Shown here: in pieces, positions 3,315-59,560 of the stretch
Layout of the letters: the number at the start of each line of letters is the position of its first letter
Numbering within the stretch: position 1 is the stretch's first letter
Origin: an uncultured virus (IMG/VR IMGVR_UViG_3300027985_001690)
Lineage: Duplodnaviria > Heunggongvirae > Uroviricota > Caudoviricetes
Virus record (IMG/VR): IMGVR_UViG_3300027985_001690
Length of the DNA stretch: 60,384 bases
Direction: 5' to 3' (one strand)
Translations under genes and position numbers: made by a program
Notes under the pieces: model-generated
What the model was told of the DNA's origin: nothing
Database searches by the model: none
Seen by the model: the letters and a program-made list of their open reading frames with translations, nothing else

Positions 3315-4126
3315 CTGGACCTACTTTCCTCTCGACGCTTTTGGGTCACGTACGGATTTCTTTGTGGAACCGAGTACACGAGCAGCCCGATCCCAAGAAC
3401 AACGGCTGCGGCGATGCCTGCCACCGCGAGCACAGATCCTGTCGTTGGTGTCCCGAACGGCTCTTCTTCCTCGACCGGTGTTGGTTGGCTTGTCGGTTGG
3501 AATGATGCGGATCTGTCCGCCGCGTTGGGTGGGGACTCCGATAGTTGCTTGGTGACGTCCGGTCCGAACTTGTACGTCGCCCACTCGATGAGCTTTCCGA
3601 ACTCGGCGATCTCATCTGGGGTCGGAAACGTCTCCGGAACAACCCGCTTGCTCTGGCAGTATTTCCGATCGAACTCGTGGAAGTCCCAGAACACCGTCTG
3701 GTCGACCTTCTGGTCGCTCTCGCAGCAGTACCGAGTGAAACTTCCATCGGATGCGGCCCATCCAGCGAACGTCGGGTACCACGCGTAGACCTCGCCGCGG
3801 CGCAGCTGGTCCATGATGATCTGCTGGTCGTACGCGTTGTGGCCGAAGAACCACCGACAGAACTCGGCCCACCGGCACCAGTCCACAGCCTGCCCCCTCG
3901 GCCTCGAGGTGAACGAGTACCTAGGGTCCGCAGACACGGCCTCAAGTAGTACGTTCAGGAGGAACTCGTAGTGGGGGGCGACCGCGGGGCCGAGTACCTC
4001 TACCTGGCGGATCTTGGCGACCTTGATCGCTCGCCCCCAGTCGTCCTGGGTCTTCCAGAAGTCGAACTGCTGGTCCTGCGGTAGCTCTTGGGCGGTGCCG
4101 TTGGTCAAGAACATCATGGTCGTCAC
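3311..4126 (-). CDS. Hypothetical protein with C-terminal TM helix and basic tail
   Basis: VLAVAGIAAAVVLGIGLLVY followed by PQRNP...KRREESRSR. Confidence 0.75.
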   Translation of the reverse strand: MTTMMFLTNGTAQELPQDQQFDFWKTQDDWGRAIKVAKIRQVEVLGPAVAPHYEFLLNVLLEAVSADPRYSFTSRPRGQAVDWCRWAEFCRWFFGHNAYDQQIIMDQLRRGEVYAWYPTFAGWAASDGSFTRYCCESDQKVDQTVFWDFHEFDRKYCQSKRVVPETFPTPDEIAEFGKLIEWATYKFGPDVTKQLSESPPNAADRSASFQPTSQPTPVEEEEPFGTPTTGSVLAVAGIAAAVVLGIGLLVYSVPQRNPYVTQKRREESRSR

Positions 4127-4417
4127 CTACGAGATGAAGGATTGCAGCATGGTCAGGTTCATGGTCCCAACGTGGCGCTTGGCCTCGGATCCGTTGCGGA
4201 GGAGGATGAGGGTGGGCACCGACGAGACCGCGAACCTCTTCGTGAGGTTGGGACACCGGTTGACGTCCACTACCAGGACATCGACGGAGGTGAACTCGGC
4301 GAGGACCTTACGCATTGTCTGGCAGGGCCCGCACCAGGATGCCGAGAACTCCACCAGAACGGTCCCGGAAGTCTTGACCAGCTGGTCGAACGTGGGTTCG
4401 GTTGCTTCGATCATCAT
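4127..4417 (-). CDS. trxA: Thioredoxin
   Basis: VEFSASWCGPC active site, cis-Pro motif SVPTL, 96 aa. Confidence 0.92.
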   Translation of the reverse strand: MMIEATEPTFDQLVKTSGTVLVEFSASWCGPCQTMRKVLAEFTSVDVLVVDVNRCPNLTKRFAVSSVPTLILLRNGSEAKRHVGTMNLTMLQSFIS

Positions 4418-6258
4418 CCGACCTCGAGGGAAGCGGACAGGTCAGCCGCGACGAATCCGCCGTTGTTGCTGTTGACGATGTTGATGGAAACAACGTCGCC
4501 GGGGTTTACCAGGACGGCGTGCGTAACGTCGGCGATGTCCGTGTTTGCTGGCGCCACTGCGCCGCTGTTCAAGGTCGCGGTGATCGCCGTGGGCGCCCCG
4601 TTCACATAGACCGTGCCGACGACGGTCTCCCCCGCCGCCGGCGCCGCCGCGGTGCCGAGGTGCAAACGCAGGTTTCGAGCGAAGCTCCTGTTCGTCACGA
4701 CGAACGGAATCTCGGTGGCGCCCTCGGTCAAGTCAGGGAGAGCGAAGACGTTGGCTCCGGGGGTCAACGCGCCTTTGACGCCGCAGTCCTTGGAGCCGAT
4801 GGCAGCTGTTTGGTAGTCGCCGTCGCCGATGCGGATGTCCCAGTGGGGATCGTAGACGGGCGTGTCGGTGTCGAGCTCGATGTCCAGGTTGCCAAGAGGC
4901 TGCAGACGAACGGTCTTCTCTGTGACCGTGTTATCCCTGTCGAAGACGGCTAGATGAGTTGATTGGTATAGGGTCGCCAGACGCGCCGTCGTCGGAACGC
5001 CACGCAGCTTTGTTCCATCGGACAACTTTAGCGTTCCCCATCCTGTCATTGAAATCGCGTCTACCGTTGGGGCTCCATTGAACAGGTAAATGTCCGAAAC
5101 GGAGTCGATGATCGAGTTCTTGTCTACCGAGACAAGAGGTATAGAGAACGGAAGAAGCTGGACGTTGCCGTCTGCGGTGATTTCTCTGGAGCCTATCTGA
5201 GCAAATGAGGACCGTACGGCGCTGACCTGTTGGAATCCGCCACCGTCTATGGATAGGTAACCGCTCCTGCTCCCAACGAATCCAGATAGGCAATCGACCA
5301 CTGTCATGTTGTCCCCGCCGTATATGGAAGTAATGGAGCATGACAGGATCGATGTCTGTGGGTCAAAACCTACATTCCAACCGAATGCACCCACGTAACT
5401 TAGGTACGCCACCTGGGCGACACCGTTGTACCTGACTACCTTGTCGAACACGACTGATGGCAGCTCCTGTACAACGAAAGTGTCTCCACCTACCGGAACA
5501 GCGGTTCCTGGGTTTGAATACACATTGTTACAGATCGTAGTCACGCGAGAATCTCCACCTCCTAGGTCCTCCATCACCCAGCAGCCCATGCCGGCGGCGA
5601 CGCCCGAGGTAAACAGCACGTGCTTGTGCAGGACGTCGGCGACGGTCCACCCGGCGTCCGAAAGGTGACCAGGATTGTTTGCCGCCGCATCCTTCGAATA
5701 CGCCAGAACCTCGCCGGCCCACAAGACGGTCGGCAGCCCCTGGATGGTGAGAAGCTCCCCTCCACAGTTCATGCCCACGAGATCGGTCGCAGCCAGGCTG
5801 CTGACGATGTAAATGGTCGTGGCGACGAGCACGCCGACGGGCTCGAGCCGCCGGCGGGCCTCGGCGAAGGTCGCCAGAGGCACCAGGGCGGTCGCGCCTG
5901 TGTTCTCGTCGTTGCCGGTCAACGGGTCGACGTACCACGTGGCCTGGGAGCCCCACACGGCGTTCGGCTGCAGGTCTCGGATCCACCGACCGTCTCCGGA
6001 CATGGTTGCCACCACGGTGATGTTGTCGACCACAGCCGCGGAGGTCTTGTCCAGATGGAAGGTGTCCTTGACCGTTCGCACGAACTTGCCGGAACCGTCG
6101 GGGATTCGCGTGTCGTCGACGGTGGCGAACGCCGCGATGTTGGACACCGAGTCGATCTGCCATCCGATGAGGAGGGCGATCAGCCTGACGATGTAGTTGA
6201 TCAGCTGTTGGACGGCTGTTCCAACAACAGAGCCGTGCTGCGGTACCGGGATGTTCAT
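4414..6258 (-). CDS. Putative receptor-binding spike, paralog B (614 aa)
   Basis: Near-identical N-terminal ~245 aa and a shared late block with 1491-3314; divergent middle. Confidence 0.6.
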   Translation of the reverse strand: MNIPVPQHGSVVGTAVQQLINYIVRLIALLIGWQIDSVSNIAAFATVDDTRIPDGSGKFVRTVKDTFHLDKTSAAVVDNITVVATMSGDGRWIRDLQPNAVWGSQATWYVDPLTGNDENTGATALVPLATFAEARRRLEPVGVLVATTIYIVSSLAATDLVGMNCGGELLTIQGLPTVLWAGEVLAYSKDAAANNPGHLSDAGWTVADVLHKHVLFTSGVAAGMGCWVMEDLGGGDSRVTTICNNVYSNPGTAVPVGGDTFVVQELPSVVFDKVVRYNGVAQVAYLSYVGAFGWNVGFDPQTSILSCSITSIYGGDNMTVVDCLSGFVGSRSGYLSIDGGGFQQVSAVRSSFAQIGSREITADGNVQLLPFSIPLVSVDKNSIIDSVSDIYLFNGAPTVDAISMTGWGTLKLSDGTKLRGVPTTARLATLYQSTHLAVFDRDNTVTEKTVRLQPLGNLDIELDTDTPVYDPHWDIRIGDGDYQTAAIGSKDCGVKGALTPGANVFALPDLTEGATEIPFVVTNRSFARNLRLHLGTAAAPAAGETVVGTVYVNGAPTAITATLNSGAVAPANTDIADVTHAVLVNPGDVVSINIVNSNNGGFVAADLSASLEVG

Positions 6259-10728: not shown

Positions 10729-11123
10729 CACTGAAGGGTCTTTCGGTCCGGTTTGGTTGGCATTTCCTCTCGCCACGCACCGGCAGGCTTGGCGAGCATG
10801 CTCGTGACCTTCTTGATCCAGGCGTCGCCGCCCACGGCGCCCAGAGCCGAGAACACCGCGACGGTGGCTACGTCATACGCAGAGTCCACCGTCGACGGTC
10901 GTAGGATGAGAACGGAGATGATCGACGCGAACAGAAACGCGACCGCGGGAACCAGCCACCCGTCGAGCTTGGACTTTCCGTCGGTTCCCTTCGGAGCGAA
11001 CTTGCGTGCCACCTCCACCGCATGCGTGACAAACATGCTGAGCAGGTAGGAAACGCCGAACAGGGTGGCGACGCGCTGCAGGACTTCGAGCTCAAGTTCC
11101 TCACAGCTTGTTGAATAGAGCAC
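10728..11123 (-). CDS. Holin-like small multi-TM protein (start uncertain)
   Basis: Three hydrophobic segments and a charged C-terminal tail. Confidence 0.5.
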   Translation of the reverse strand: MLYSTSCEELELEVLQRVATLFGVSYLLSMFVTHAVEVARKFAPKGTDGKSKLDGWLVPAVAFLFASIISVLILRPSTVDSAYDVATVAVFSALGAVGGDAWIKKVTSMLAKPAGAWREEMPTKPDRKTLQ

Positions 11124-12336
11124 CGGCCATCACGTTTCTACTCACACGGACGTCGGAGTAATCCTGGATGTAGTGCCAGGTGGCCACATCTGATTGCGAG
11201 TACGGAGCCAAGTAGATCCTTCCGTTCGTTGGATCGAAACTTCCGCCGATGTACGCGCCGGCCTCTACCGACAGCCCATGCGTGTATGTCACTACGTCCC
11301 CTGTGTAGCAATCCATGTAGTGCCAAGTGCTTACCGTTGCTTGATTGTACGGTACGAAGTAGATACGATTCTCTGCCGGAGAATACACTCCGAACTGATA
11401 GGCAAAGTTCACCGCGGTAGGAGCGTTGCTTTGATAACCTACGACTTCTCCTTCCGGGTCGATGTAGTGCCAGATAAGCTCGTCAGCCTGAAAGGCTGGG
11501 ACGAAGTAGACTCGGCTCTGCTTGGGGCTGTACACGGCTCCTATGTACGCGTTGACGGGCAGCGCAATGGATTCGTAGCCGACGACTGCACCGGTGTCGC
11601 AGTCGATGTAGTGCCAAGTAGACTGGGAGGACTGCCCGGTCGGTGCCATGTATATTCGATTCAGATCGAGATGCAGCGCTCCGCCTCGATAAGAATCCAC
11701 AGGCCCCATGCCATGCTCGTAGCCGACGACCGCACCGGTGTCGCAATCGATGTAGTGCCATGTGGCCTCAACAGACTGACCGTTAGGCACGAGATAGATC
11801 CTGTTCTGTGTCGGCGAGTAAACCCCTCCAGCGTACGCAAATGCGACAGCAGCAGTTCCGTGTGGATACGCCACCACGTCCCCGGTTTTGCAGTCTATGT
11901 AGTGCCAGTTGGCTTGGTTTCCTTGGTTGCTTGGGACGAGGTAGATCCTGTCCTGCGTAGGACTGTAGACACCTCCGAAATATCCCTGCGCAACTACCAC
12001 CGCTCCGTGGGTATACGCTACTACCTGCCCGGTGTTGCAGTCGATGTAGTGCCAGTCCGCCTGATCCGATTGAGAGTCCGGAACAAGGTAGATTCGGTTC
12101 TGCGTTGGGCTGTAGACGGCTCCGATGTACCCCATGTTGACCACTGTGGCACCATGAGTATAGGACCCTCCGGAGAACCCGACTTGCTTCGACGCCTTCT
12201 GGATGGGCCGTAGGTACCGAAGCAAGGCAAGCCTGTCGGTGTCGCGAAGACCCGGTATGGGCTGCGGGCCAAGCTTCCGCTCGAGGGCGTTGAGGGCCTG
12301 CTGGACGGCGGATCGGGTGAACTGTGCGAGCTTCAT
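11101..12336 (-). CDS. 7-repeat beta-propeller protein, paralog A
   Basis: Seven ~49-aa repeats YxGGVYSPTQNRIYLVP...WHYIDCxTG; start MKLAQFT chosen by comparison with the paralog. Confidence 0.8.
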   Translation of the reverse strand: MKLAQFTRSAVQQALNALERKLGPQPIPGLRDTDRLALLRYLRPIQKASKQVGFSGGSYTHGATVVNMGYIGAVYSPTQNRIYLVPDSQSDQADWHYIDCNTGQVVAYTHGAVVVAQGYFGGVYSPTQDRIYLVPSNQGNQANWHYIDCKTGDVVAYPHGTAAVAFAYAGGVYSPTQNRIYLVPNGQSVEATWHYIDCDTGAVVGYEHGMGPVDSYRGGALHLDLNRIYMAPTGQSSQSTWHYIDCDTGAVVGYESIALPVNAYIGAVYSPKQSRVYFVPAFQADELIWHYIDPEGEVVGYQSNAPTAVNFAYQFGVYSPAENRIYFVPYNQATVSTWHYMDCYTGDVVTYTHGLSVEAGAYIGGSFDPTNGRIYLAPYSQSDVATWHYIQDYSDVRVSRNVMAGALFNKL

Positions 12337-12337
12337 G

Positions 12338-12916
12338 TCAGAACTTCTCCATGATCTTCGGGACCGCGAACACGGCACCGATCATCGATGCGACCACCAC
12401 GAACATCACCATGCCGGTGCTACCAGTGGGTCCCGAAGGAGGCTCGTGCTCGAGGTACTGTTCGTCGGCGAACACGCTCTCCGGGCAGCAGGACGGCTTG
12501 GTAGAGCCGCCGCACGCGTATGGCATATCGTCGGTCACCTCGGCTCCCGGCGTCCACCAAGGTTCCTTGTTGCCCTGTCCAAGCTGGCTCAGAGCTCGAG
12601 CTCGCGTCTCATCGTCGACGGCGTGGAACCACCGAGCGAAACAGGCGAATGTCACCCAGTCCTGATGGCACGTGCCGTCGTACTCCTGCCACAGGCCGGG
12701 CGCGGTCTGTCCTTGGACCATGGCGTTGATGACGTCCTCGATGCGCTTCTGCAGATCGGGGTGCAGGTTGAGCGATGGACGGTCATCTCGCCACTGACGG
12801 TCGAACGCATCGACTGCGCCGTCTCCCTTCCACAGCCGGACGTCCTCCCGGACCATGATCCTGGAGATCTCCTGGAAGTAGGCCTGGTTACCGTTGAGTG
12901 GGATCTTGCAGTTCAT
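12338..12916 (-). CDS. Hypothetical protein with C-terminal TM
   Basis: MVMFVVVASMIGAVFAVPK. Confidence 0.7.
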   Translation of the reverse strand: MNCKIPLNGNQAYFQEISRIMVREDVRLWKGDGAVDAFDRQWRDDRPSLNLHPDLQKRIEDVINAMVQGQTAPGLWQEYDGTCHQDWVTFACFARWFHAVDDETRARALSQLGQGNKEPWWTPGAEVTDDMPYACGGSTKPSCCPESVFADEQYLEHEPPSGPTGSTGMVMFVVVASMIGAVFAVPKIMEKF

Positions 12917-12923
12917 GTTTGCC

Positions 12924-14186
12924 TCAGAACTTGTTGAATAGCGCCCCCGCCATCACGTTCCTGGACACAGGGACATCGGAGTACTCCTCGACGTATATCC
13001 ACGGCACAGACGGTTGGTAGTACGCAATCATGTACACTCGGTTCTCGGTCGGGCTAAAAACGCACCCTGTGTAGCCTGGATCTGCAGGCGTGGATCCGGT
13101 TTCATACTCGACCACGCCCCCGTCGTCGCAGTCGATGTAATGCCAAGTAGACACCTCACCCTGGAAGTTTGGGGCCATGTATATTCTGTTTTCAGCTGGC
13201 GAGTAACACCCACCAGCGTAGGCGGCGCTGACGGCTGGAACAATCAACCCATTGTCGTACGCCACTACGTTTCCGCTGTCGCAGTCGATGTAGTGCCACT
13301 CGGATTCGGGTCCCTGTCCAGCCGGAACCAGATATATTCGGTCTTGTGTAGGAGAATAGACTCCTCCAGAATATGCTGATGCATTCAGAGGTGGGAAAAT
13401 GTTGTTCTGATATGCTACGAGAGCACCTGTGTCGCAGTCGATGTAGTGCCACGTTCCCTCGCTGCTGATACCAGACGGAACGAGGTAGATTCTGTTCTGA
13501 GTCGGGCTGTAGACACCGCCAGCGTAGTACCCACCCACAGGCCCTATGATAACTCCGTCGTATTCGACGACGTTTCCATTTTCACAATCGATATAGTGCC
13601 ACTTCGACTGCGTCGCCTGAGCGTTGGGACATAGGTAGATCCTGTTCTGTGTAGGACTGTACACAGCCCCCAAATAGGCGTTAGCTACCAAAGTCAAAGA
13701 GCCGTGTGGATATGCCACTACATCCCCTGTTTTACAGTCCAGGTAGTGCCAATTGGCCTGTGTAGACATCGAGAAAGGTGCGAAGTAAATACGATCCTGT
13801 GTAGGCGAGTATGCCCCCCCTTGGTAACCATAATTGGGCAACACACCAGCACCATGGGCGTAAGCGACCAACTCTCCTGTATAGCAGTTGATGTAATGCC
13901 AATTCGCCTCGTCCGATTGACCTGACGGAACCAGGTAGATTCGATTCTGTGTGGGGGAGTACACGCCAGCTCTGTACGGGTAGAGGCCGAACGTTCCTCC
14001 GGTGTCAAACGATCCAACCCCAAATCCAACGTTCTTGGCTTCTTCCTGGATGGGACGCAGGTACCGAAGGAGCGCGAGCCTGTCGGTGTCCCGCAGCCCA
14101 GGGATGGGGTTTACGCCTAGCTTGCGCTCGAGCGCGTTGAGGGCTTGCTGGACGGCGGACCGAGTGAATTGTGCGAGATTAGTCAT
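12924..14186 (-). CDS. 7-repeat beta-propeller protein, paralog B
   Basis: Same seven repeats and shared termini (LAQFTRSAVQQ..., SRNVMAGALFNK); AAGGA RBS. Confidence 0.8.
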   Translation of the reverse strand: MTNLAQFTRSAVQQALNALERKLGVNPIPGLRDTDRLALLRYLRPIQEEAKNVGFGVGSFDTGGTFGLYPYRAGVYSPTQNRIYLVPSGQSDEANWHYINCYTGELVAYAHGAGVLPNYGYQGGAYSPTQDRIYFAPFSMSTQANWHYLDCKTGDVVAYPHGSLTLVANAYLGAVYSPTQNRIYLCPNAQATQSKWHYIDCENGNVVEYDGVIIGPVGGYYAGGVYSPTQNRIYLVPSGISSEGTWHYIDCDTGALVAYQNNIFPPLNASAYSGGVYSPTQDRIYLVPAGQGPESEWHYIDCDSGNVVAYDNGLIVPAVSAAYAGGCYSPAENRIYMAPNFQGEVSTWHYIDCDDGGVVEYETGSTPADPGYTGCVFSPTENRVYMIAYYQPSVPWIYVEEYSDVPVSRNVMAGALFNKF

Positions 14187-14193
14187 GGGTCCT

Positions 14194-14787
14194 TTACCTA
14201 ACGACTCGCCGGGTGGCGTAGGAGATGACCTGGAAGACCAGGGCGCCCACCACCGCGCTGACGAGTACATCCTTGAACGTTGTCGAGGCGGCGGTTGACG
14301 CCGCATCCTCCGCGGTATCCTCGGACAGGTGCGCGGGGACGAAGTAATTGCCGGTGCTGCCGTACCTGGCCACCGCCATTTCGCAGTCGGTTGGATCGGG
14401 GCAGACGTCTTCGATGTGCAGCCCGGGGTGGTACTCAAAGTGTCCAGCGTCCCCCCACCTACCTCCCCAAACGAATCCCATGTCCTCTGCGATTTGTCCG
14501 AGTACCTCGTATCTGGGATCGGCCTCGAGCTGCAGCGTTCCGTCGGAGTTCCGGATGAACAGGTCGACCGCGCGCCCGAACACGTGCCAGCTCCGGCACC
14601 CTGGAGCGTTGGAGACGATCTTGCCTGGCTTGGTCCGACCCTGGGCGTAAATCTCCGCCTGCTCGGAACAGCTTCGAAGCGTCGAAGCGATCTTGAGCTC
14701 GATCCCGTTGTCCTTCGCCTCGGCGATGAACCGCTCGGTGGCGGCTCTCGTGTCCGGCGTCAGGTCCTCGAGCAGAATCGATCCCAT
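14194..14787 (-). CDS. M15 family (L-Ala-D-Glu-type) peptidase with C-terminal TM anchor
   Basis: LRSCSEQAEIYAQGRT, SWHVFGRAVD, WGGRWGDAGHFE; VLVSAVVGALVFQVI-RR. Confidence 0.88.
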   Translation of the reverse strand: MGSILLEDLTPDTRAATERFIAEAKDNGIELKIASTLRSCSEQAEIYAQGRTKPGKIVSNAPGCRSWHVFGRAVDLFIRNSDGTLQLEADPRYEVLGQIAEDMGFVWGGRWGDAGHFEYHPGLHIEDVCPDPTDCEMAVARYGSTGNYFVPAHLSEDTAEDAASTAASTTFKDVLVSAVVGALVFQVISYATRRVVR

Positions 14788-38263: not shown

Positions 38264-38287
38264 AGAGCCCGACCAGAGGCCGGGCTC
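38256..38287 (-). terminator. Intrinsic terminator downstream of tmRNA
   Basis: GAGCCCGGCC-TCT-GGTCGGGCTC hairpin followed by TTCAGTTTT. Confidence 0.65.
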
Positions 38288-38289
38288 AG

Positions 38290-38647
38290 TGGATCCGCCG
38301 GGAGTCGAACCCGGGTCCGCAAGCGATCAACCACATCCCTCGTTCACGCGCGTAGCTGGTCTAAGGCTTCCAGCGGCCTTCAGCGCCGTGGGGGTGCGGC
38401 GCCTCCACCACCGTCTAAATCTCGGCTCTTCGGTCGACGGATTCCTCGAGCCCAATCCCACTAGGTTGTCGCTGCAGCTGGCCGCGGGAGCCTCCAGCCT
38501 CAGCGCCGAGCAGCTGTCAGGCTGCAGCGGACATCGCGTTGTTGTCGTTCGCGATTGGAGTTGCACCGATTTGATCAAGCCAGTTCCGGTGCCTCTGGCT
38601 GCGCGCGAGACGTCGTCTCCTGCCCACGTCGAAACCAAGTCGGACCC
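38290..38647 (-). ncRNA. ssrA: tmRNA, tag (A)ANDNNAMSAAA* at 38552-38517
   Basis: 5' GGGTCCGACTTGGTTTCGAC; 3' CCGGGTTCGACTCCCGGCGGATCCA; acceptor stem with G3-U Ala determinant; CCA not encoded. Confidence 0.95.
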
Positions 38648-49666: not shown

Positions 49667-50005
49667 CTAGTTCCTGTTCAGGATGTTGTAGACGCGCTTG
49701 GAAAAATCGGCGACGTGTCCGTCGAACAAATCCGATCGTTCGCACTGCCTGGTGCACCAGCGGTTCATGAGCGATGGGTCAGAAATCGGCTCTGCGCTCG
49801 GTTTTGCGTCCGTTCCCTCGAAAGTGATGGCGGTCTCCATCGGACCAGGGGCATCCCCCAACTCGTCGTCAGCCAGGTACACCTTGTCGTCGACATCTTC
49901 GCTCAGCTGCATGAAAGGTCGACCAGCGATGCCCCATGCCTTGTTGCACTTTCCGTCGCACACGACGGTGCACTTTTTGCCAAAATAGATGATTGACTTG
50001 TACAT
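49667..50005 (-). CDS. Cys-containing hypothetical phage protein
   Basis: CDGKCNKAWG...NRWCTRQCERS; TGATG coupling. Confidence 0.65.
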   Translation of the reverse strand: MYKSIIYFGKKCTVVCDGKCNKAWGIAGRPFMQLSEDVDDKVYLADDELGDAPGPMETAITFEGTDAKPSAEPISDPSLMNRWCTRQCERSDLFDGHVADFSKRVYNILNRN

Positions 50006-51273
50006 CAGGCTGCAGCCTTTCTCGATCGAAGCACCGCTCGGTGAACCGCGGCGACAGCGAGCCGCCGGGTGGATGTGTTGTCCTTCGCCGCCGCGGCCAG
50101 GACCACGGTCGCCGGCGCGCAATCGACGTCGACGTACTCCGGGAGATGCCGAGCGACCCAGGCGTATGTGCCGGGCTTGCAGTTGCCAACCGACAGGCTG
50201 TCCTTGATGCACACCTGAATAGCATCGAGGTCCAGGTCGGGCCAAACACTCGACCAGTCACCGGACTCGATGGCCTGGTCCCGCATCACCTGCCGATTGA
50301 CTCGACGGTCAGAAGCTCGGCGCTTCGCCACACGGTACGCGCCTTCAATTGTCGGACCATGCACCCAGGGGTCGTTTGGCGATAGCCGTAGGATGACGCC
50401 GGCGCCTTCGTACAGGTACGTCCCCCGGCTCTGTCCGCACCACTTCGCCTCGTAGGCCTCTACAGTGGCGCACGGCAGCTTGGACTTGATGGGCGCGGCG
50501 TCGAGCGTGAGCAGTCCGTCAATGAGGGCGATGCCCTTGGCAGCGACGCGCTTCGGCCAGTTGCGAGCGAGCCAGAACTGATGGGCCGACGCCGTCCCGC
50601 TACGCCCCTTGCCCTTGTTGTCCCAAACGACGTTGGCAACGGAGTGGACCCCAGGTGCTCGATCATGGTGCTCGGCGACGTAGACGCTGGTGGAGTGGCC
50701 GGCGTCGTCGACCCACCTGGAGGCGACCGCTTGACGGAAGTCGGCTCGGTTGTAGTAGGGCATGAATGCCTTGGCCAAGCTTTTGCGCTCCGCGGACTGC
50801 TTCGCCTTGATCAACGCCGCCCGCTTGGCCTCCTGCTTTGCAAGCACCCATCCAGATTTCCGATTCTCCAAAGGGTCGGTCCGGGACTGGAGATTACGGA
50901 GACGAGCTGCTCGGACCCTGGCCATCTGGCTGTGGCTCGGCAGACGGGCTGCCGTTCGATCCATCTGCTCGTTGGTCTCGAGGTTGCGCGCGTTCGTGTA
51001 TTGGGCGAACAGGACGTCGTGCATTTCCCTCAGCGCTCGGTAGCGCCACGTCTCGTATGCGCTCACCCCGTATCGGTACAGGCACCCGAGTTTGACCGAA
51101 TTGATCAGCTTCGAGTATCGCTCGTTGATCGCCTCGAGGGCCGGTGTCGCGTTGCGTAGGATTTGTTCATATTCGCTCGTCGTGATCGTCGGTCTCCTTG
51201 CCCCGGTCTTCCGGGGCGTTTCGCCTGACACCGCGTCAGGCAGGGGATACACACAGTAGCAGGCCTGCATCAC
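50005..51273 (-). CDS. Hypothetical protein (true start possibly ATC at ~51186 after AAGGAG)
   Basis: Long ORF; C-terminal SVGNCKPG motif. Confidence 0.6.
   Translation of the reverse strand: MMQACYCVYPLPDAVSGETPRKTGARRPTITTSEYEQILRNATPALEAINERYSKLINSVKLGCLYRYGVSAYETWRYRALREMHDVLFAQYTNARNLETNEQMDRTAARLPSHSQMARVRAARLRNLQSRTDPLENRKSGWVLAKQEAKRAALIKAKQSAERKSLAKAFMPYYNRADFRQAVASRWVDDAGHSTSVYVAEHHDRAPGVHSVANVVWDNKGKGRSGTASAHQFWLARNWPKRVAAKGIALIDGLLTLDAAPIKSKLPCATVEAYEAKWCGQSRGTYLYEGAGVILRLSPNDPWVHGPTIEGAYRVAKRRASDRRVNRQVMRDQAIESGDWSSVWPDLDLDAIQVCIKDSLSVGNCKPGTYAWVARHLPEYVDVDCAPATVVLAAAAKDNTSTRRLAVAAVHRAVLRSRKAAA
51194..51244 (-). promoter_or_regulatory. Structured leader motif, copy 1
   Basis: Two hairpins joined by GAAAC and ending in AAGGAG; covaries with 53680-53730. 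Confidence 0.75.
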
Positions 51274-53672
51274 ACGTCAAGGCGGTATTCGGTGTCGCAC
51301 CTCCCGCAGAGCATTGCCCCGTGCAGGGAGCCTCCGTGGGCCTCCGAGACGGTCTCCACGCTGCCGCAGCTGGCGCACTCGCCGATTACGTCGTCGGCGC
51401 TCTCGGGCTCCCAGTCCTCCCCGGTCGCGATGCGCTCGGCGCGCTCCTGCTCGCGGAGCTTGCGCGCCTGGCGGACCTCGGCGGGCGTCAGCGGGACGAT
51501 ATCGACGACCATGTCAAACCGCGCCTTGAGGTCGGCGAGACGCCCCGCGTAGGACGATTTCTGCTCGTCGGTGCAGAAGCACTTGCCGCGATGCCACCCG
51601 CACGCGCAGGGGTTCGCGGAGGCGACCAGTCGCGCGGTCGCCGGCATTGTGCCGACGTGACCCTCTTTGAGAGCGACGAACAGGGAGTCAAGCGTGGACC
51701 GGCGGAACTCCTGCACCTCGTCCAGGTACAGAATGCCGTGCGTGGCGAGGGAGACCTCACCAGGGCGCGAGCCACGAGACATGCTGGACTGACCGAACAG
51801 CCCGGCGTCGCTGACGGTGTGATGCGGGGCGCGGAAAGGTCGCTCAGAGACCATCGGACGGTGGACGTCCAGGTATCCTCCCGCAGAGTGGACGGCGCTG
51901 ACCTCCAGAGCCTCGGCCTCGGTCATCACCGGCAGCACGCCAGGGAGCCGGCGCGCGATCATGGTCCGACCGCAGCCAGCGGGGCCAACCATCAGGACTG
52001 ACTTGCCAGCGCGGACAGCGGCTGAAATCTGCTCCAACACCTCGTCGCGGCCCACCACGTCGTCCATGTCGAGGCTGCAGGGCCTGGACAGAGCGCCGGT
52101 AGCCTCCTCAGCGTCGAGGGAGGAGCGACCCGCGAAGTGGTCCAGCACCTCGGACAGCTGCGCGGCGCAACGGACGGTGATGCCTCGGACAGCACGCGCC
52201 TCGTGCACGTTGGCGCGAGGGACGATGATCTCGCGCATGCCAGCATCCCTCGCTGCAAGCGTCATCGGGAGCACCCCGCGAACCGGGTGGACTGCACCGG
52301 ACAGCGAAAGCTCACCGATGACGGCCACGTCCGAAGGGACCGGAGAGCCAGCGACCGCAAGCGCCGCGGCCACGTCCACAGCGGTGGAGTGCCTGCCCTC
52401 GATCCTGAGCGATGTCCCGTTGCCGCTGCGGTCGCCCTGGTGGGCCAAGCGGGCGTGGACGCCGCAAGCGCGCAGAGAAGCCCCGACGCGGGCGCGTAGC
52501 TCCCTCTCGCAGCCGTCGCCGTCCTTCCAGACGATCGGCGTCTGGGCGGTGTTGTCCACCCGAACAGTGACCCTGTGCGCGGCGATGCCGTCGACCGCAT
52601 ACGAGACCACCACGTCAACGCGATTTTCGGGCGCGTAGGGCGACGAGTCGACCGTGGGTCGCTCTCCCCCGCCCTGCTCGTTCTCGTGGGCCGCAGCCTG
52701 CCAGCCCTCGCGCTCCAGGTTGCTCTTGGGGCTGTCGAGATCCTTGATGGACTCCCACTTGCACCACATGACCCAGCCATGATGTCGGCGCTCGTCGTCC
52801 GTCGCAGTAGCGATCGACGTTGCTGGCTTCGCCAGCATGCGGGCGACGTACACATGCCCCTCACCCCGCATCGCGGCAGCGCGGGCGTCGTCGAGCAGGT
52901 CTGCCGCGGTCTGGTCGCCTTGCGACTCCAGCGCCTCGATCGCGTCCATGACCTTGCGCTCCAACTCTGCGCGGAGCGACTTGGGATGCTGGACCACGAC
53001 AGCCTTGGCGAGGGCGACGACGTCGGCGTTGACGGCAATCCCGGCGGCGAGCGCCTGTTGCTCGTCGTGGTGGCGGTCCATCGCGGGGCGCAAGCTCTTG
53101 CGGTAGTCAGCGGCCACCTGATCGGTGGTCTGCGACAGCACCTCTGCGGTCACCTTGCGCGCCATGCACGGCTCGTCATGGCGGTGGATGCGGCAGGTCA
53201 GGTGCTCGCCGAGGGTCGCGACGTCCTGCCGATCGTCGATGCCGTACGGTGCGAGCACCTCGCGCAGCCCGTAATCGTCCAGCGTCTCGCAGAAGAACGA
53301 GACGTCGGAGTGCACTCGATCCTCCACCGTCTCCCCCATGAACAGGTAGCCGTCCTCGCTCATGCATTCGGAGACGTTCTCCAGGGCGCAGTGCACCAGG
53401 TGGCGCACGATCGGCTCGACCACGGGGCGAAGCTGGTCGAGGAAAGCGTCGGAGGCGGCGCGACCGGCTTCCGTGGCGACCAGGACGGCGTTGTATCGAG
53501 TGCCGATGCCAAGGGGACCACGCCCCGCCGGGTCGACGCGGTCGACGCGGAGCAACTCGCGCCGCAGCAACGATCCCACGGTGGACCCGTGGGGGCGGGC
53601 GCGCAGGCCGATGGTGGTGTGGAGGAGGGCGACGATCTGCTTCGCGGAGAGGGACTTGGTCGTGCGTTTCAT
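51270..53672 (-). CDS. Unknown N-terminal region fused to a truncated ComM/YifB Mg-chelatase-like AAA+ protein
   Basis: IGELSLSGAVHPVRGVLP, PFRAPHHTVS, RPGEVSLATHGILYLDE, ASANPCACG; Walker A GPAGCGRT. Confidence 0.85.
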   Translation of the reverse strand: MKRTTKSLSAKQIVALLHTTIGLRARPHGSTVGSLLRRELLRVDRVDPAGRGPLGIGTRYNAVLVATEAGRAASDAFLDQLRPVVEPIVRHLVHCALENVSECMSEDGYLFMGETVEDRVHSDVSFFCETLDDYGLREVLAPYGIDDRQDVATLGEHLTCRIHRHDEPCMARKVTAEVLSQTTDQVAADYRKSLRPAMDRHHDEQQALAAGIAVNADVVALAKAVVVQHPKSLRAELERKVMDAIEALESQGDQTAADLLDDARAAAMRGEGHVYVARMLAKPATSIATATDDERRHHGWVMWCKWESIKDLDSPKSNLEREGWQAAAHENEQGGGERPTVDSSPYAPENRVDVVVSYAVDGIAAHRVTVRVDNTAQTPIVWKDGDGCERELRARVGASLRACGVHARLAHQGDRSGNGTSLRIEGRHSTAVDVAAALAVAGSPVPSDVAVIGELSLSGAVHPVRGVLPMTLAARDAGMREIIVPRANVHEARAVRGITVRCAAQLSEVLDHFAGRSSLDAEEATGALSRPCSLDMDDVVGRDEVLEQISAAVRAGKSVLMVGPAGCGRTMIARRLPGVLPVMTEAEALEVSAVHSAGGYLDVHRPMVSERPFRAPHHTVSDAGLFGQSSMSRGSRPGEVSLATHGILYLDEVQEFRRSTLDSLFVALKEGHVGTMPATARLVASANPCACGWHRGKCFCTDEQKSSYAGRLADLKARFDMVVDIVPLTPAEVRQARKLREQERAERIATGEDWEPESADDVIGECASCGSVETVSEAHGGSLHGAMLCGRCDTEYRLDV

Positions 53673-53679
53673 CTCGGGG

Positions 53680-53730
53680 CTCCTTGCCCTGGTCTTCCAG
53701 GGCGTTTCGCCGGGCACCGCGCCCGGCAGG
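53680..53730 (-). promoter_or_regulatory. Structured leader motif, copy 2
   Basis: Same architecture as copy 1, AAGGAG 7 nt before ATG 53672. Confidence 0.75.
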
Positions 53731-53861
53731 TCAGCGTAGCGTGAATTGTCAGGGTGAGTGTCAAGCCTAGCCCCGCGCTACACCGCGTGCAACCACAATC
53801 GACCCCGCACGCGTAAGTACCCGTAACCAGGCGGCTTTACGACGCACCGCCGGCTACCACG

Positions 53862-53969
53862 CGCGCCCGCGTAAGCCCCCCGCGCCCGCGTAAGCCCCCC
53901 GCGCCCGCGTAAGCCCCCCGCGCCCGCGTAAGCCCCCCGCGCCCGCGTAGCCCCCCCGCGTAGCCCCCC
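53862..53969. repeat. 19-bp tandem repeat CGCGCCCGCGTAAGCCCCC: four perfect plus two degenerate copies
   Basis: Direct reading; intergenic; no spacers. Confidence 0.95.
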
Positions 53970-53974
53970 TGGAG

Positions 53975-54568
53975 CTATCCGGCGTCCGGGTCGAACATGT
54001 CCGCGAACGCGTCGACCAGGTCACGATCGTCGTCGCCCTCCCACACGTCCACCCACCGTCCCGAGAGCGCATCGCCGTCGTGCCACTCGGCCAGCCGTCG
54101 CGCGGTCAGCCTGGTGGGCAGCTCCACCTCGTCCATCGGGTACGTCTGCAGCGTGTAGCGCGGCCAGTCGTCGCTCTGGTCAGTGACGATGAGCTTGACG
54201 ATCCGATCGCCAACTGGCGTCGGAACCAGGAATACGATGCTCGCGCCCTCGTCGTTGCCGTATGTGACGTCCACCGCAAGCTTCGCGTCCTTGCCCAGCG
54301 ACTTCGGGAAGGTCAGGCCACGCTTACCGGTCGACTCCGATGCCATCCGATACCACACGTGCCACACCTGGCCGGTGATGTCGTTCGGCTCGGACACGAC
54401 CTTGAACTCCAACTCGCCGGGGTCGTCATCAAACAGGAAGCCTTGCTGCTCCAGAACCGCCTGGACGCTGGCGTGGTCGGCTTTCGCTGCGTATTTCCAG
54501 AGCTTTGGATCCGGTTCTACGTGTGATTCTAGCTCGGTCCAACCAGTGGCTTCGGAGGGGATATCCAT
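53975..54568 (-). CDS. Acidic hypothetical protein
   Basis: 197-aa ORF with coding-like codon use. Confidence 0.65.
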   Translation of the reverse strand: MDIPSEATGWTELESHVEPDPKLWKYAAKADHASVQAVLEQQGFLFDDDPGELEFKVVSEPNDITGQVWHVWYRMASESTGKRGLTFPKSLGKDAKLAVDVTYGNDEGASIVFLVPTPVGDRIVKLIVTDQSDDWPRYTLQTYPMDEVELPTRLTARRLAEWHDGDALSGRWVDVWEGDDDRDLVDAFADMFDPDAG

Positions 54569-58220: not shown

Positions 58221-58580
58221 ATGGCGAGGCGGATCGACCTGGAAACGATGCGGCGCGCGGACCGGTTGATCGAAAATGCGCATGAGGAAAGGAAGACCAT
58301 GGGAGTGATGGCGTGCGGCAGGAGAGACTGCGAAAACATCATGTGCACGAGGCTGATTCTGGACCACTCGGCGTACATCTGCGACGAGTGCTTCGAAGAG
58401 CTTCTGTTGAGGATGGGACTCTCGAAGGAGAGGGACTCGGAAATCCATGCCGGGCTACCGGAGCGCATGTGTCCGGTGGAGCTGCGCCGGCGGATTGAAG
58501 ACTTCATGAGGACGCCCAAGGGAACGTTCCTCGAGGTCGACACCAGAGAGGAATTTGACCGACTGACAGGTGGACGATGA
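58221..58580 (+). CDS. Cys-motif hypothetical protein (start uncertain, possibly 58299)
   Basis: MGVMACGRRDCENIMC...YICDEC; ATGA overlap with the ATPase gene. Confidence 0.55.
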   Translation: MARRIDLETMRRADRLIENAHEERKTMGVMACGRRDCENIMCTRLILDHSAYICDECFEELLLRMGLSKERDSEIHAGLPERMCPVELRRRIEDFMRTPKGTFLEVDTREEFDRLTGGR

Positions 58581-59560
58581 CAACGGTTGACCAGGTGTGC
58601 GGTCTGATCTCGAGCCATCTCGACAGGGATGACGAGAGGTTCATGACCATCGTCAGGCAAATCGAGGCGGGGGCATCCAGGAACGGCCACCGATCCATCC
58701 AGGAACGCATCCAGTCCATTCTCTCTCGTGGTAGGAGGATGACCCCCCAGCTGCGCGTGATGGCTGGCGGTCTCGTCGCAGAACTCGAGCCGACGGTTCA
58801 CTTCGACCGAATGGTTCTGTCCGACAAAACCAGAGGCGCGATTCAACGTGTCATCGACGAGAACAAGGCCAGGGACAAGCTCCACGATCACAAGCTGTGG
58901 CCGCGGCGAAAGATTCTCATGGTGGGCCCTCCTGGGACTGGGAAGACAATCACGGCGTCCGCGCTGGCCTCGGGCCTGGGAATGCCTCTGTTCCACGTCC
59001 AGCAGTCTGGGCTGATCGAGAGCTACATGGGGCACACGTCCGAGAACCTCGCGAAGGTTTTCGAGCACATCCGACAGGACGTAGGCGTGTATCTCTTCGA
59101 CGAGTTCGACGCCCTCGGGACGGAGCGAGACTGGTCTGGACCGGGCTCTGGTCCTGCCGATGGGGAAATGCGCCGGACGTTGAACTCCTTGCTTGTGATG
59201 CTCGAGAGGGACGACTCCCAGAGCCTCATTCTCGCATCGACGAACCACGCATCCATTCTCGATAGGGCGCTGTTCCGTAGGTTCGACGACATCATCCGGT
59301 TTGGCCTACCGACGTCCTGCCAGGCCTTCGAGCTCGTGCAGAAGGTCTTCGAAGGGATTGGATTCCATCTCGAGGGCGAGATCGTCGCCAACGCCGTCGG
59401 ATCGCTGAGTCATTCCGAGATCGAGTCGGCGTGCTTGGAATCGGCCAAGCGGGTACTGCTGTCGCACGAAGGGCCGACCACGGGCGAGATGGCAGTCCCA
59501 GCGGACGTCCTGGTATCGGAGCTGCGCTCCAGAACGGAGTCGACCCTTGGACGCGAGTGA
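58577..59560 (+). CDS. AAA+ ATPase of the type usually paired with an S8 subtilase
   Basis: GPPGTGKT, YLFDEFDAL, EMRRTLNSLL, ASTNH, LDRALFRRFDD. Confidence 0.88.
   Translation: MTTVDQVCGLISSHLDRDDERFMTIVRQIEAGASRNGHRSIQERIQSILSRGRRMTPQLRVMAGGLVAELEPTVHFDRMVLSDKTRGAIQRVIDENKARDKLHDHKLWPRRKILMVGPPGTGKTITASALASGLGMPLFHVQQSGLIESYMGHTSENLAKVFEHIRQDVGVYLFDEFDALGTERDWSGPGSGPADGEMRRTLNSLLVMLERDDSQSLILASTNHASILDRALFRRFDDIIRFGLPTSCQAFELVQKVFEGIGFHLEGEIVANAVGSLSHSEIESACLESAKRVLLSHEGPTTGEMAVPADVLVSELRSRTESTLGRE

What the first reader, a model, noticed from the sequence alone, without database searches (positions are those of the whole stretch)
51194..53730. Two copies of a 51-nt covarying, hammerhead-shaped leader abutting ribosome-binding sites
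Seen (minus strand): CCTG-CCTGAC-GCGGT-GTCAGG-CGAAAC-GCCCCGG-AAGA-CCGGGGC-AAGGAG (51244-51194) and CCTG-CCGGGC-GCGGT-GCCCGG-CGAAAC-GCCCTGG-AAGA-CCAGGGC-AAGGAG (53730-53680). All six differences form three compensatory base pairs, while loops and linker are invariant. Stem-GAAAC-stem recalls hammerhead stems II/III, but CUGANGA is altered (CUGACCU in copy 2, absent in copy 1) and there is no NUH site. Inference: an unassigned cis-regulatory RNA or a repurposed hammerhead controlling translation.
Basis: partly seen in the sequence, partly recalled or inferred. Interest (0 to 1): 0.75.

Follow-up and report, generated by a model that had tools for sequence, protein, structure and literature searches.

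The report
Two-hairpin mRNA leader in a phage
Two neighbouring genes of an unknown large phage-like genome each sit behind the same small folded RNA element whose stems change in matched pairs; it is a real, undescribed leader that probably tunes protein synthesis, and it is not a hammerhead ribozyme.

Summary
Two 51-nt copies lie on the minus strand (51244-51194 and 53730-53680). They differ at six positions, which make three compensatory base pairs, and every unpaired base is identical. The window holds no other copy.

The element is non-coding sense-strand RNA. It has two 7-bp hairpins, and the second ends exactly at AAGGAG. Copy 2 precedes a ComM/YifB-like ATPase gene. Copy 1 precedes a basic 393-aa gene of unknown family.

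The leader travels with the 393-aa gene. A related strain in run X3 has it 6 nt before that gene's ATG, in a different reading frame. A 48%-identical homologue (L009) has the same geometry with 10 of 14 stem pairs changed on both sides.

Rfam gives no match. The hammerhead core strand and cleavage triplet are missing. However, contigs carrying this gene family hold a near-hammerhead (L009) and a twister ribozyme (L004) between genes.

My best reading is a gene-linked translational operator, perhaps bound by the 393-aa protein. This is inferred, not shown. The main rival is a constitutive structural leader. It is a new variant of a known kind, of moderate interest.

The parts
51194..51244 (-). 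Leader copy 1. Possible 3-nt anti-SD CCU 51244-51242. Stem 1 arms 51241-51235 and 51229-51223, loop GCGGU 51234-51230. Linker GAAAC 51222-51218. Stem 2 arms 51217-51211 and 51206-51200, loop AAGA 51210-51207. AAGGAG 51199-51194.
53680..53730 (-). Leader copy 2, same layout. CCU 53730-53728. Stem 1 arms 53727-53721 and 53715-53709, loop 53720-53716. Linker 53708-53704. Stem 2 arms 53703-53697 and 53692-53686, loop 53696-53693. AAGGAG 53685-53680.
51270..53672 (-). Gene behind copy 2: an 800-aa protein. The C-terminal half is ComM/YifB-like (Mg_chelatase 4e-49, ChlI, Lon_C). The N-terminal 420 aa has no relative found. ATG 53672 lies 7 nt after AAGGAG.
50005..51186 (-). Gene behind copy 1: a basic 393-aa protein (pI 9.8) of an unnamed family seen mostly in virus-like metagenome contigs. 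Its start is uncertain. Candidates are ATC 51186 (7 nt after AAGGAG), ACG 51189 at the homologues' ATG position, or ATG 51270, which overlaps the upstream TGA and would read through the leader.
53862..53960 (.). 19-nt tandem repeat, 5.2 copies at 97% match, with G-runs on the minus strand. It lies about 130 nt upstream of copy 2. Its link to the leader is unknown.

Best explanation
The element is a non-coding, sense-strand mRNA leader. Two GC-rich 7-bp hairpins are joined by a 5-nt linker, and the second hairpin ends exactly at a strong Shine-Dalgarno sequence. A weak 3-bp helix between the CCU just upstream and the AGG of AAGGAG may close a three-way junction and partly mask the ribosome-binding site.

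The leader belongs to the gene for a basic 393-aa protein and is found with that gene in unrelated genomic contexts. In this genome a second copy has been placed before the ComM/YifB-like ATPase gene.

I propose that it is a translational operator. A trans-acting factor would recognise the invariant loops and linker, and by sitting next to (or locking) the Shine-Dalgarno region it would set how often ribosomes start on both genes. The simplest candidate for that factor is the 393-aa protein itself, as in autogenous control.

Shown: the two hairpins, their non-coding status, the strand, and the linkage to the gene. Inferred: the 3-bp helix, any effect on translation, and the identity of the factor.
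For: - Structure. Three compensatory pairs separate the two copies (P about 2e-5 to 2.5e-6). The leader of the 48%-identical homologue in L009 has the same geometry (3-7-5-7-5-7-5-7, then the SD). There, 14 of 14 stem pairs are standard and 10 are changed on both sides; shifting the register by 1-4 nt leaves only 3-8 of 14.
- Rarity of the geometry. A strict descriptor (two perfect hairpins with an SD within 3 nt) hits only the two window copies and that L009 site, searching the window plus 13 loci. Shuffles of the window gave 0-2 hits, mean 0.6.
- Sense-strand RNA. L009 stem 2 has a U.G pair. The only listed change inside the motif in run X3 is A to G at position 41, opposite U32. On the other strand both would be A.C mismatches.
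- Non-coding. Homologues start with M only 3-4 residues before the conserved SEY. The X3 contig has AAGGAG, then 6 nt, then ATG, in a different frame relative to the motif than in the window. In the one frame open through both copies, 4 of 17 codons differ, all by non-conservative replacements (D/G, S/P, R/W, G/R); 5 of the 6 base differences fall in these codons and 1 is synonymous.
- Linkage to the gene. The leader precedes the family's gene in the window, in X3 and in L009. L009 shares no other gene with the window. A looser version sits at the family's gene in L004.
- Sequence-specific recognition. None of the 23 unpaired bases differs between the copies, against 3 of 14 pairs (P 0.021). 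Loops differ in L009 and L004, as expected if a partner co-evolves with them.
- The protein is basic, with net charge +21.
- Pairing of the SD core with CCU has probability 0.35-0.44 in the ensemble.
Against: - No binding, expression or reporter data exist, and no RNA run holds the region.
- The protein model is confident (pLDDT 89) but shows no known RNA-binding fold. No family name was found.
- Comparative support rests on few genomes: the window, one low-depth X3 contig (6.7x; 14 differences were not listed by the tool), one 1.9x MAG contig, and a weaker case in L004 (fold z-score -0.9).
- 7 of the 9 homologue loci whose gene start is on the contig lack the architecture.
- A second X3 contig (2.7x) covering the ComM-gene leader lacks 13 nt, namely the linker plus one arm of stem 2. 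Either that copy can lose a hairpin or the contig is faulty.
- The 3-bp closing helix is weak: pairing probability 0.17 in L009 and absent in L004.
- Copy 1 has no canonical start codon at the SD. If ATG 51270 is used, ribosomes would read through that copy.
Confidence: 0.4

Rival explanations
1. It is a constitutive structural leader with no specific partner. The hairpins protect the mRNA 5' end or a processed end from exonucleases. They also isolate the ribosome-binding site from upstream sequence, much like the hairpin used behind ribozyme insulators in synthetic biology (recalled).
For: GC-rich hairpins directly before SDs are common in the related contigs (L009 at 2560-2634 and 4088-4166; L004 at 5916-5985). 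Those contigs carry self-cleaving ribozymes between genes, so processed ends needing protection are plausible. Loop sequences and sizes are not conserved across L009 and L004. One X3 contig lacks a hairpin.
Against: It does not explain why all 23 unpaired bases are identical between the copies while 3 of 14 stem pairs have been swapped. It also does not explain why the flanks are unalignable, or why the same geometry follows one gene family into unrelated contexts.
Confidence: 0.3
2. It is a self-cleaving RNA. It could be a hammerhead derivative or an undescribed ribozyme class of the 'RAGATH' kind, which cuts the transcript just upstream of the ribosome-binding site.
For: The shape is a three-way junction with GAAAC between the two hairpins. 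Unpaired bases are invariant while the stems covary. L009 has a Hammerhead_1 match at 701-751, at 25 bits against a gathering score of 34, with every core position canonical except U4 to C; it lies directly before an SD and ATG 769. L004 has a Twister-P5 match just above its gathering score (37.8 against 37.6 bits) right after the family's gene. Published passages say hammerheads flank genes in prophages (PMC3088659) and that most RAGATH motifs have unknown function (PMC11061315).
Against: The CUGANGA strand is absent, since no bases lie between the putative stem I and stem II. AAG stands where G-U-H should be. No ribozyme model of Rfam matches at E<=10 or E<=2. The unpaired bases are not conserved in the L009 and L004 leaders; only CGG in loop 1 and GAA in the linker are shared with L009. 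That pattern is unlike a catalytic core.
Confidence: 0.08
3. It is a small riboswitch. A metabolite or ion binds the junction and loops and stabilises the helix that masks the SD.
For: The unpaired bases are invariant and the junction is compact. The SD core is partly paired in the ensemble (unpaired probability 0.10-0.32). The layout of two small hairpins before an SD recalls guanidine-II (recalled).
Against: No Rfam riboswitch model matches. The guanidine-II loop motif is absent. Loops and linker are not conserved in L009 or L004. The genes controlled give no hint of a ligand. Only a 3-bp switch helix is available.
Confidence: 0.07
4. It acts as DNA. The inverted repeats would be operators for a DNA-binding protein, a hairpin promoter, or part of an origin next to the 19-nt tandem repeats.
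For: The element contains inverted repeats. A tandem repeat array lies about 130 nt upstream of copy 2. TTGAC lies 28-30 nt upstream of both copies.
Against: Compensatory changes keep pairing rather than sequence, which is unlike a protein half-site. The U.G pairs work only in the sense RNA. The element is fixed in position to the SD in three genomes. The promoter scan found 0 sites.
Confidence: 0.05
5. It is coding: a shared N-terminal peptide of both proteins, read from GTG in loop 1 or from ATG 51270.
For: The same frame is open through both copies, and both have an in-frame GTG. The public gene call for the downstream gene starts at ATG 51270 (421 aa).
Against: 4 of 17 codons differ, all by non-conservative replacements, yet every change is base-pair compensated. 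Homologues lack the extension. The X3 relative reads the gene in another frame relative to the motif. The ComM-like gene is called from ATG 53672.
Confidence: 0.03

Closest known systems
Hammerhead ribozyme, type I (Rfam RF00163)
   Same: Both have three-way-junction geometry with two closed hairpins and GAAA(C) between them. A near-canonical example sits directly before a ribosome-binding site in L009, a contig that carries a homologue of the 393-aa gene.
   Different: There is no CUGANGA strand, no G-U-H cleavage triplet, a putative stem I of only 3 bp, and no match to any hammerhead model. It is not a member.
Start-associated sequences (SAS) and extended SAS of Cluster K mycobacteriophages (PMC3203893; passages read)
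   Same: Both are phage repeats that contain the SD a few bases before start codons, sometimes with inverted repeats just upstream. Function is unknown but linked to translation initiation, and the association with particular gene families is conserved.
   Different: SAS occur in 11-19 copies per genome with their own 13-bp consensus. Here there are 2 copies. That consensus is not enriched in the window: 23 matches at up to 3 mismatches against 20.4 expected. The authors found little support for mRNA hairpins, whereas here compensatory changes support them.
Autogenous translational operators (ribosomal-protein leaders; phage T4 gene 32, gene 43 and RegA; MS2 coat-protein hairpin). Recalled, not checked here.
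   Same: Both are small structured elements at or overlapping the SD. They are conserved together with the gene they control, and their loops are recognised by sequence.
   Different: No binding protein is known here. The protein's predicted fold matches nothing informative.
Guanidine-II (mini-ykkC) riboswitch. Recalled; the Rfam model was searched.
   Same: Both have two small hairpins in tandem immediately upstream of an SD.
   Different: The loops are GCGGU and AAGA, not the ACGR tetraloops. There is no Rfam match.
[quoted passage not shown]
   Same: It is an unassigned structured RNA beside a gene family whose other members have a twister (L004) or a near-hammerhead (L009) nearby.
   Different: It matches none of the RAGATH families in Rfam 15. 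The association rests on two contigs.

Membership tests
Hammerhead ribozyme | Conserved core strand CUGANGA between stems I and II | tested here: not met
   No bases lie between CCU and stem 1 in either copy. CUGACCU upstream of copy 2 lacks G8 and A9.
Hammerhead ribozyme | GAAA between stems II and III | tested here: met
   The linker GAAAC is invariant in both copies. It is UGAAG in the L009 leader.
Hammerhead ribozyme | Cleavage triplet N-U-H after stem III, with the A15.1-U16.1 pair | tested here: not met
   Stem 2 is followed by AAG of AAGGAG.
Hammerhead ribozyme | Three helices around the core | tested here: inconclusive
   Two hairpins are well supported. The third helix would be 3 bp (CCU/AGG) with pairing probability 0.35-0.44. 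Two of its three pairs differ on both sides in L009, and it is absent in L004.
Hammerhead ribozyme | Match to the Rfam hammerhead covariance models | tested here: not met
   No hit at gathering score, at E<=10 on 50900-54100, or at E<=2 on the whole window. The same search finds a 25-bit hit in L009.
Hammerhead ribozyme | Self-cleavage | not testable with these tools
   This needs an in-vitro transcription and cleavage assay.
Cluster K start-associated sequence (SAS/ESAS) | 13-bp consensus within two deviations, repeated many times per genome, 3-8 bp before starts | tested here: not met
   Copy 2 has 2 deviations and copy 1 has 3. The window has 23 matches at up to 3 mismatches against 20.4 expected by chance. 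Only two leader copies exist in 60 kb.
Guanidine-II riboswitch (mini-ykkC) | Two hairpins each capped by an ACGR tetraloop; match to the Rfam model | tested here: not met
   The loops are GCGGU and AAGA. There is no Rfam match.
Autogenous translational operator | Specific binding of the encoded protein to its own leader, with repression | not testable with these tools
   Only indirect support exists: linkage to the gene, invariant loops and a basic protein.

The most novel reading that the evidence does not exclude
The leader is a relic or offshoot of the self-cleaving ribozymes that punctuate these phage-like genomes. One version is a hammerhead-shaped three-way junction that lost its catalytic strand and was kept as an SD-masking operator. 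The bolder version is a still-active ribozyme of an undescribed class that trims the mRNA just before the ribosome-binding site. [quoted passage not shown]
Probability: 0.1. Interest if true: 0.8.

Novelty: new variant of a known kind. Interest (0 to 1): 0.55.

Why it matters
If the reading holds, this is a new family of structured leader. It is carried as a module with one widespread but unnamed virus-associated protein family (777 representatives at E<=1e-3), and within one genome it has been copied onto a second gene.

It would give a handle on the function of that protein, for example as an RNA-binding autoregulator. It would also show how dark-matter phages organise expression with small RNA devices (hairpin leaders, twister, hammerhead) placed directly before ribosome-binding sites.

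It is also a clean natural example of compensatory evolution. The three states C-G, U.G and U-A are seen at one pair across copies and strains.

Tried and rejected
**Searches for more copies of the element**
- Exact-pattern scans found 0. The full motif was run in genome contigs and viral contigs. A pattern of loops, linker and SD only was run in viral contigs and metagenome contigs. Each half alone was run in viral contigs.
- blastn of the 4.1-kb region against phages gave no match.
- blastn of the 63-nt motif against phages and plasmids gave only chance-level hits, with best E 0.4. The best one, on a Rhizobium plasmid, is a coding-like stretch that shares only stem 2.
- Model R1 found nothing in L001-L011 (best E 0.24) or in the MAG holding L009 (best E 0.42).

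**Searches for relatives of the two genes**
- The whole genome of the window is not held.
- Relatives of the ComM-like protein were not found in viral contigs. Only its C-terminal ATPase half matches phage records. Its N-terminal 420 aa has no homologue in the 5.8-billion-protein set or in G001.
- The 393-aa family was not found in viral contigs. Among 401 genomes of G001's phylum it was found in 1, which is G001 itself.
- MAFFT could not place L009 in the structural register, so the register was set by the descriptor in a script. As a result no second covariance model could be built.

**Expression**
- No RNA holder was listed for the region.

**Function of the 393-aa protein**
- There were no Pfam, PHROG or PADLOC hits and no relative in the PDB by sequence.
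- Foldseek gave nothing at E<=1e-3. VIA-align gave a best Z of 7.3, on the N-terminal helices only.
- ESM Atlas neighbours are unnamed viral clusters scoring 0.82-0.84.

**Other**
- A third 'copy' at 14198-14251 (+), at 17.9 bits, was rejected. It shares 16 nt with stem 2 of copy 2 but lies inside the membrane-anchor codons of the VanY-like gene on the other strand.
- Earlier findings of this scan held nothing.
- No paper describing this element was found in the literature searches. These were word searches, not sequence searches.
Full report
**Observation.** A pattern holding every invariant letter finds exactly these two sites at up to 3 mismatches, and 100 shuffles gave none. The six differences are at motif positions 7/19, 9/17 and 32/41, which are three base pairs that stay Watson-Crick. 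Six random substitutions fall as three complete pairs with probability 2.0e-5, or 2.5e-6 if pairing must also be kept. The chance that all six avoid the 23 unpaired positions is 0.021. Both hairpins appear in the MFE and centroid folds. Outside the 51 nt the two loci cannot be aligned. A covariance model built from the two copies (R1), run with filters off over the whole window, scores them 91.1 and 91.0 bits. The next of the 33 listed matches scores 17.9 bits.

**Context.** The window has 62% G+C, and its genes are tightly packed, almost all on the minus strand. It encodes GH25, VanY/M15 and SLT cell-wall hydrolases, a Gp88-family protein, an HNH nuclease, a thioredoxin, a DnaG-type zinc finger and a tmRNA. 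Very few proteins match PHROGs, and there is no DNA similarity to 50,697 phage records. I read it as part of a large, unclassified phage-like genome; the public gene table gives a contig of 122,384 nt. Copy 2 lies in a 302-nt gap. Its AAGGAG is 7 nt before the ATG (53672) of an 800-aa protein. The C-terminal half of that protein is ComM/YifB-like (Mg_chelatase 4e-49), and the first 420 residues have no relative. Copy 1 lies in the 83-nt gap after that gene's stop and before a 393-aa protein without Pfam, PHROG or PADLOC family.

**The element is not coding, and it is RNA of the sense strand.** One frame is open through both copies. In that frame 4 of 17 codons differ, all by non-conservative replacements (D/G, S/P, R/W, G/R); 5 of the 6 base differences fall in these codons and 1 is synonymous, yet each change is compensated in the helix. 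Homologues of the 393-aa protein begin with M only 3-4 residues before the conserved SEY motif, so they lack any extension. In run X3 a 301-nt contig (depth 6.7) lies on 51020-51185, then carries 13 other letters, then lies on 53680-53731, which is the whole motif. Read on the minus strand this gives motif-AAGGAG, 6 nt, ATG GCA TTC ACG..., or M-A-F-T-T-S-E-Y. The relative therefore has the leader directly before this gene, with a canonical ATG and in a different frame relative to the motif than in the window. The only listed difference inside the motif in X3 is A to G at position 41, opposite U32. That is a U.G pair, intermediate between U-A (copy 2) and C-G (copy 1). The tool left 14 differences unlisted, so the rest of that copy is not fully known. 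U.G pairs are tolerated only in the sense RNA.

**A more distant relative keeps the shape, not the sequence.** Eleven loci were fetched with an alignment of the protein family, 8 from metagenomes and 3 from genomes. R1 finds nothing in them. Folding the region before the 48%-identical homologue in L009 (ATG 3050) nevertheless gives the same layout: UCC, a 7-bp stem with a 5-nt loop, a 5-nt linker, a 7-bp stem with a 5-nt loop, then GGA of the SD.
- A strict descriptor (two perfect 6-8 bp hairpins, 3-7 nt apart, SD within 3 nt) hits only the two window copies and this site, searching the window plus 13 loci. Ten shuffles of the window gave 0-2 hits, mean 0.6.
- With the register set by that descriptor, 14 of 14 L009 stem pairs are standard. 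Ten are changed on both sides and one on one side relative to copy 1. Shifts of 1-4 nt leave 3-8 of 14 pairs, and RNAalifold returns the three-way junction.
- L009 shares no other gene with the window, so leader and gene move together.
- With a relaxed descriptor (loops 3-10 nt), the 31%-identical homologue in L004 also has two 6-bp hairpins ending 1 nt before GAGG and ATG 4591. That fold is not better than shuffles (z -0.9), and the relaxed pattern is common: 23 hits in 309 kb, with shuffles giving 1-8 per 121 kb.
- Seven of the nine homologue loci whose gene start is on the contig show nothing. L003 and L007 look like near-duplicates of each other.

**Tests against known families.**
- Rfam 15 gives only the tmRNA at gathering score. 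It gives two chance-level hits on 50900-54100 at E<=10, and nothing ribozyme- or riboswitch-like at E<=2 over the whole window.
- As a hammerhead, the element has the linker GAAA(C) and the shape. It lacks the CUGANGA strand entirely, has AAG where G-U-H should follow stem III, and its stem I would be 3 bp. It is not a member.
- The Cluster K start-associated sequence is the nearest described phage feature (PMC3203893, passages). Its consensus is not enriched here: 23 matches at up to 3 mismatches against 20.4 expected.
- The guanidine-II loop motif is absent.

**An unexpected neighbourhood.** The same Rfam search on the related loci found two ribozyme-type matches.
- L009 701-751 matches Hammerhead_1 at 25 bits (gathering score 34; E 0.012 on the contig, 4e-4 on 251 nt). 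Every core position is canonical except U4 to C, and it is followed at once by an SD and ATG 769. The contig has about 1.9x coverage by its title, so a base error is possible.
- L004 5859-5915 matches Twister-P5 just above its gathering score (37.8 against 37.6 bits), directly after the stop of the family's gene.

Published passages state that hammerheads often flank single genes in prophages and may cut long transcripts into gene-length mRNAs (PMC3088659). They also state that most 'RAGATH' motifs found near such genes have no known function (PMC11061315).

**Mechanism.** What must be explained is the following:
- two hairpins kept by compensation;
- unpaired bases frozen within this lineage but different in distant ones;
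- a fixed junction with the SD;
- linkage to one gene family;
- a second copy on the neighbouring gene.

A translational operator recognised by a lineage-specific factor fits all five. The encoded protein is the simplest candidate: it is basic (pI 9.8, net +21) and always present. Its AlphaFold model is confident (pLDDT 89.3, pTM 0.63; 59-sequence alignment), but it matches no informative fold. This step is therefore inference. A 3-bp CCU/AGG helix could mask the SD core. Its pairing probability is 0.35-0.44 in the window copies, 0.17 in L009, and it is absent in L004, so I treat it as tentative. The main rival is a constitutive protective or insulating leader. That reading fits the abundance of hairpins before SDs in these contigs, and the X3 contig (depth 2.7) in which the ComM-gene leader lacks 13 nt covering the linker and one arm. 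It does not explain the frozen loops. The ribozyme, riboswitch, DNA-level and coding readings are less likely, for the reasons given under the rivals.

**Limits.**
- No RNA run holds the region, so transcription, 5' ends and processing are unknown.
- TTGAC lies 28-30 nt upstream of both copies, but the promoter scan found nothing.
- The comparative base is thin and partly of low depth.
- The contigs of the closest homologues could not be fetched.
- The start of the 393-aa gene in the window is unresolved. ACG stands where homologues have ATG, and ATC is 7 nt after the SD. An ATG at 51270 overlaps the upstream TGA and is the public gene call (421 aa).

Noticed in passing
L009:701-751 (+): A near-canonical type I hammerhead: Hammerhead_1 at 25 bits against a gathering score of 34, with the core intact except U4 to C. 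It lies directly before an SD and ATG 769 of a 403-aa ORF without Pfam family. The contig has about 1.9x coverage, so the C may be an error.
   Followed up: partly
L004:5859-5915 (+): A Twister-P5 ribozyme match just above its gathering score (37.8 against 37.6 bits). It lies immediately after the stop of the 393-aa-family gene and about 65 nt before the SD and ATG 5980 of the next gene.
   Followed up: partly
window 51186-51189 and 51270: The 393-aa gene has no canonical start behind its SD. ACG stands where homologues have ATG, and ATC is at +7. An in-frame ATG at 51270 overlaps the upstream stop (TGATG) and would translate through leader copy 1.
   Followed up: partly
window 53862-53960: A 19-nt unit repeated 5.2 times (97% match), with runs of six G on the minus strand, between the upstream gene and copy 2. 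It could be iterons, a protein-binding array or a G-quadruplex-prone tract.
   Followed up: no
window 38287-38647 (-): A phage-borne tmRNA gene (Rfam 95.3 bits). ARAGORN gives the tag peptide ANDNNAMSAAA.
   Followed up: no
window 58577-59560 (+): An AAA ATPase with a strong match to IetA of the IetAS defence system (PADLOC 2.9e-61; phrog_3757 2.3e-70).
   Followed up: no
window 11100-14180 (-): About 20 diverged copies of a 147-153-nt unit in two adjacent genes. They encode roughly 50-aa repeats with a conserved YSPTQNRIY...WHYIDC signature, probably a repeat or propeller-type protein.
   Followed up: no
window 1491-3314 and 4414-6258 (-): Two roughly 610-aa paralogous genes share stretches of 75-93% nucleotide identity, spaced about 2.94 kb apart (repeat families D6, D7, D19).
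   Followed up: no
L009:2612-2630 and 4146-4163 (+): Two genes of L009 are preceded by the same string (CCAA(A)GGAGAACGACA + ATGGCA), each after hairpins. This is a second kind of start-associated repeat in that contig.
   Followed up: partly
run X3 contig on window 53588-53751: A related strain's leader of the ComM-like gene lacks 13 nt (the linker plus the 5' arm of stem 2). That would leave a single hybrid hairpin. The contig is 151 nt at depth 2.7, so it may be an assembly fault.
   Followed up: no
window 14226-14243 (+): A 16-nt identity with stem 2 of copy 2 lies inside the C-terminal membrane-anchor codons of the VanY-like gene on the other strand. The same string occurs in a coding-like stretch of a Rhizobium plasmid. 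Judged to be chance arising from preferred codons.
   Followed up: yes
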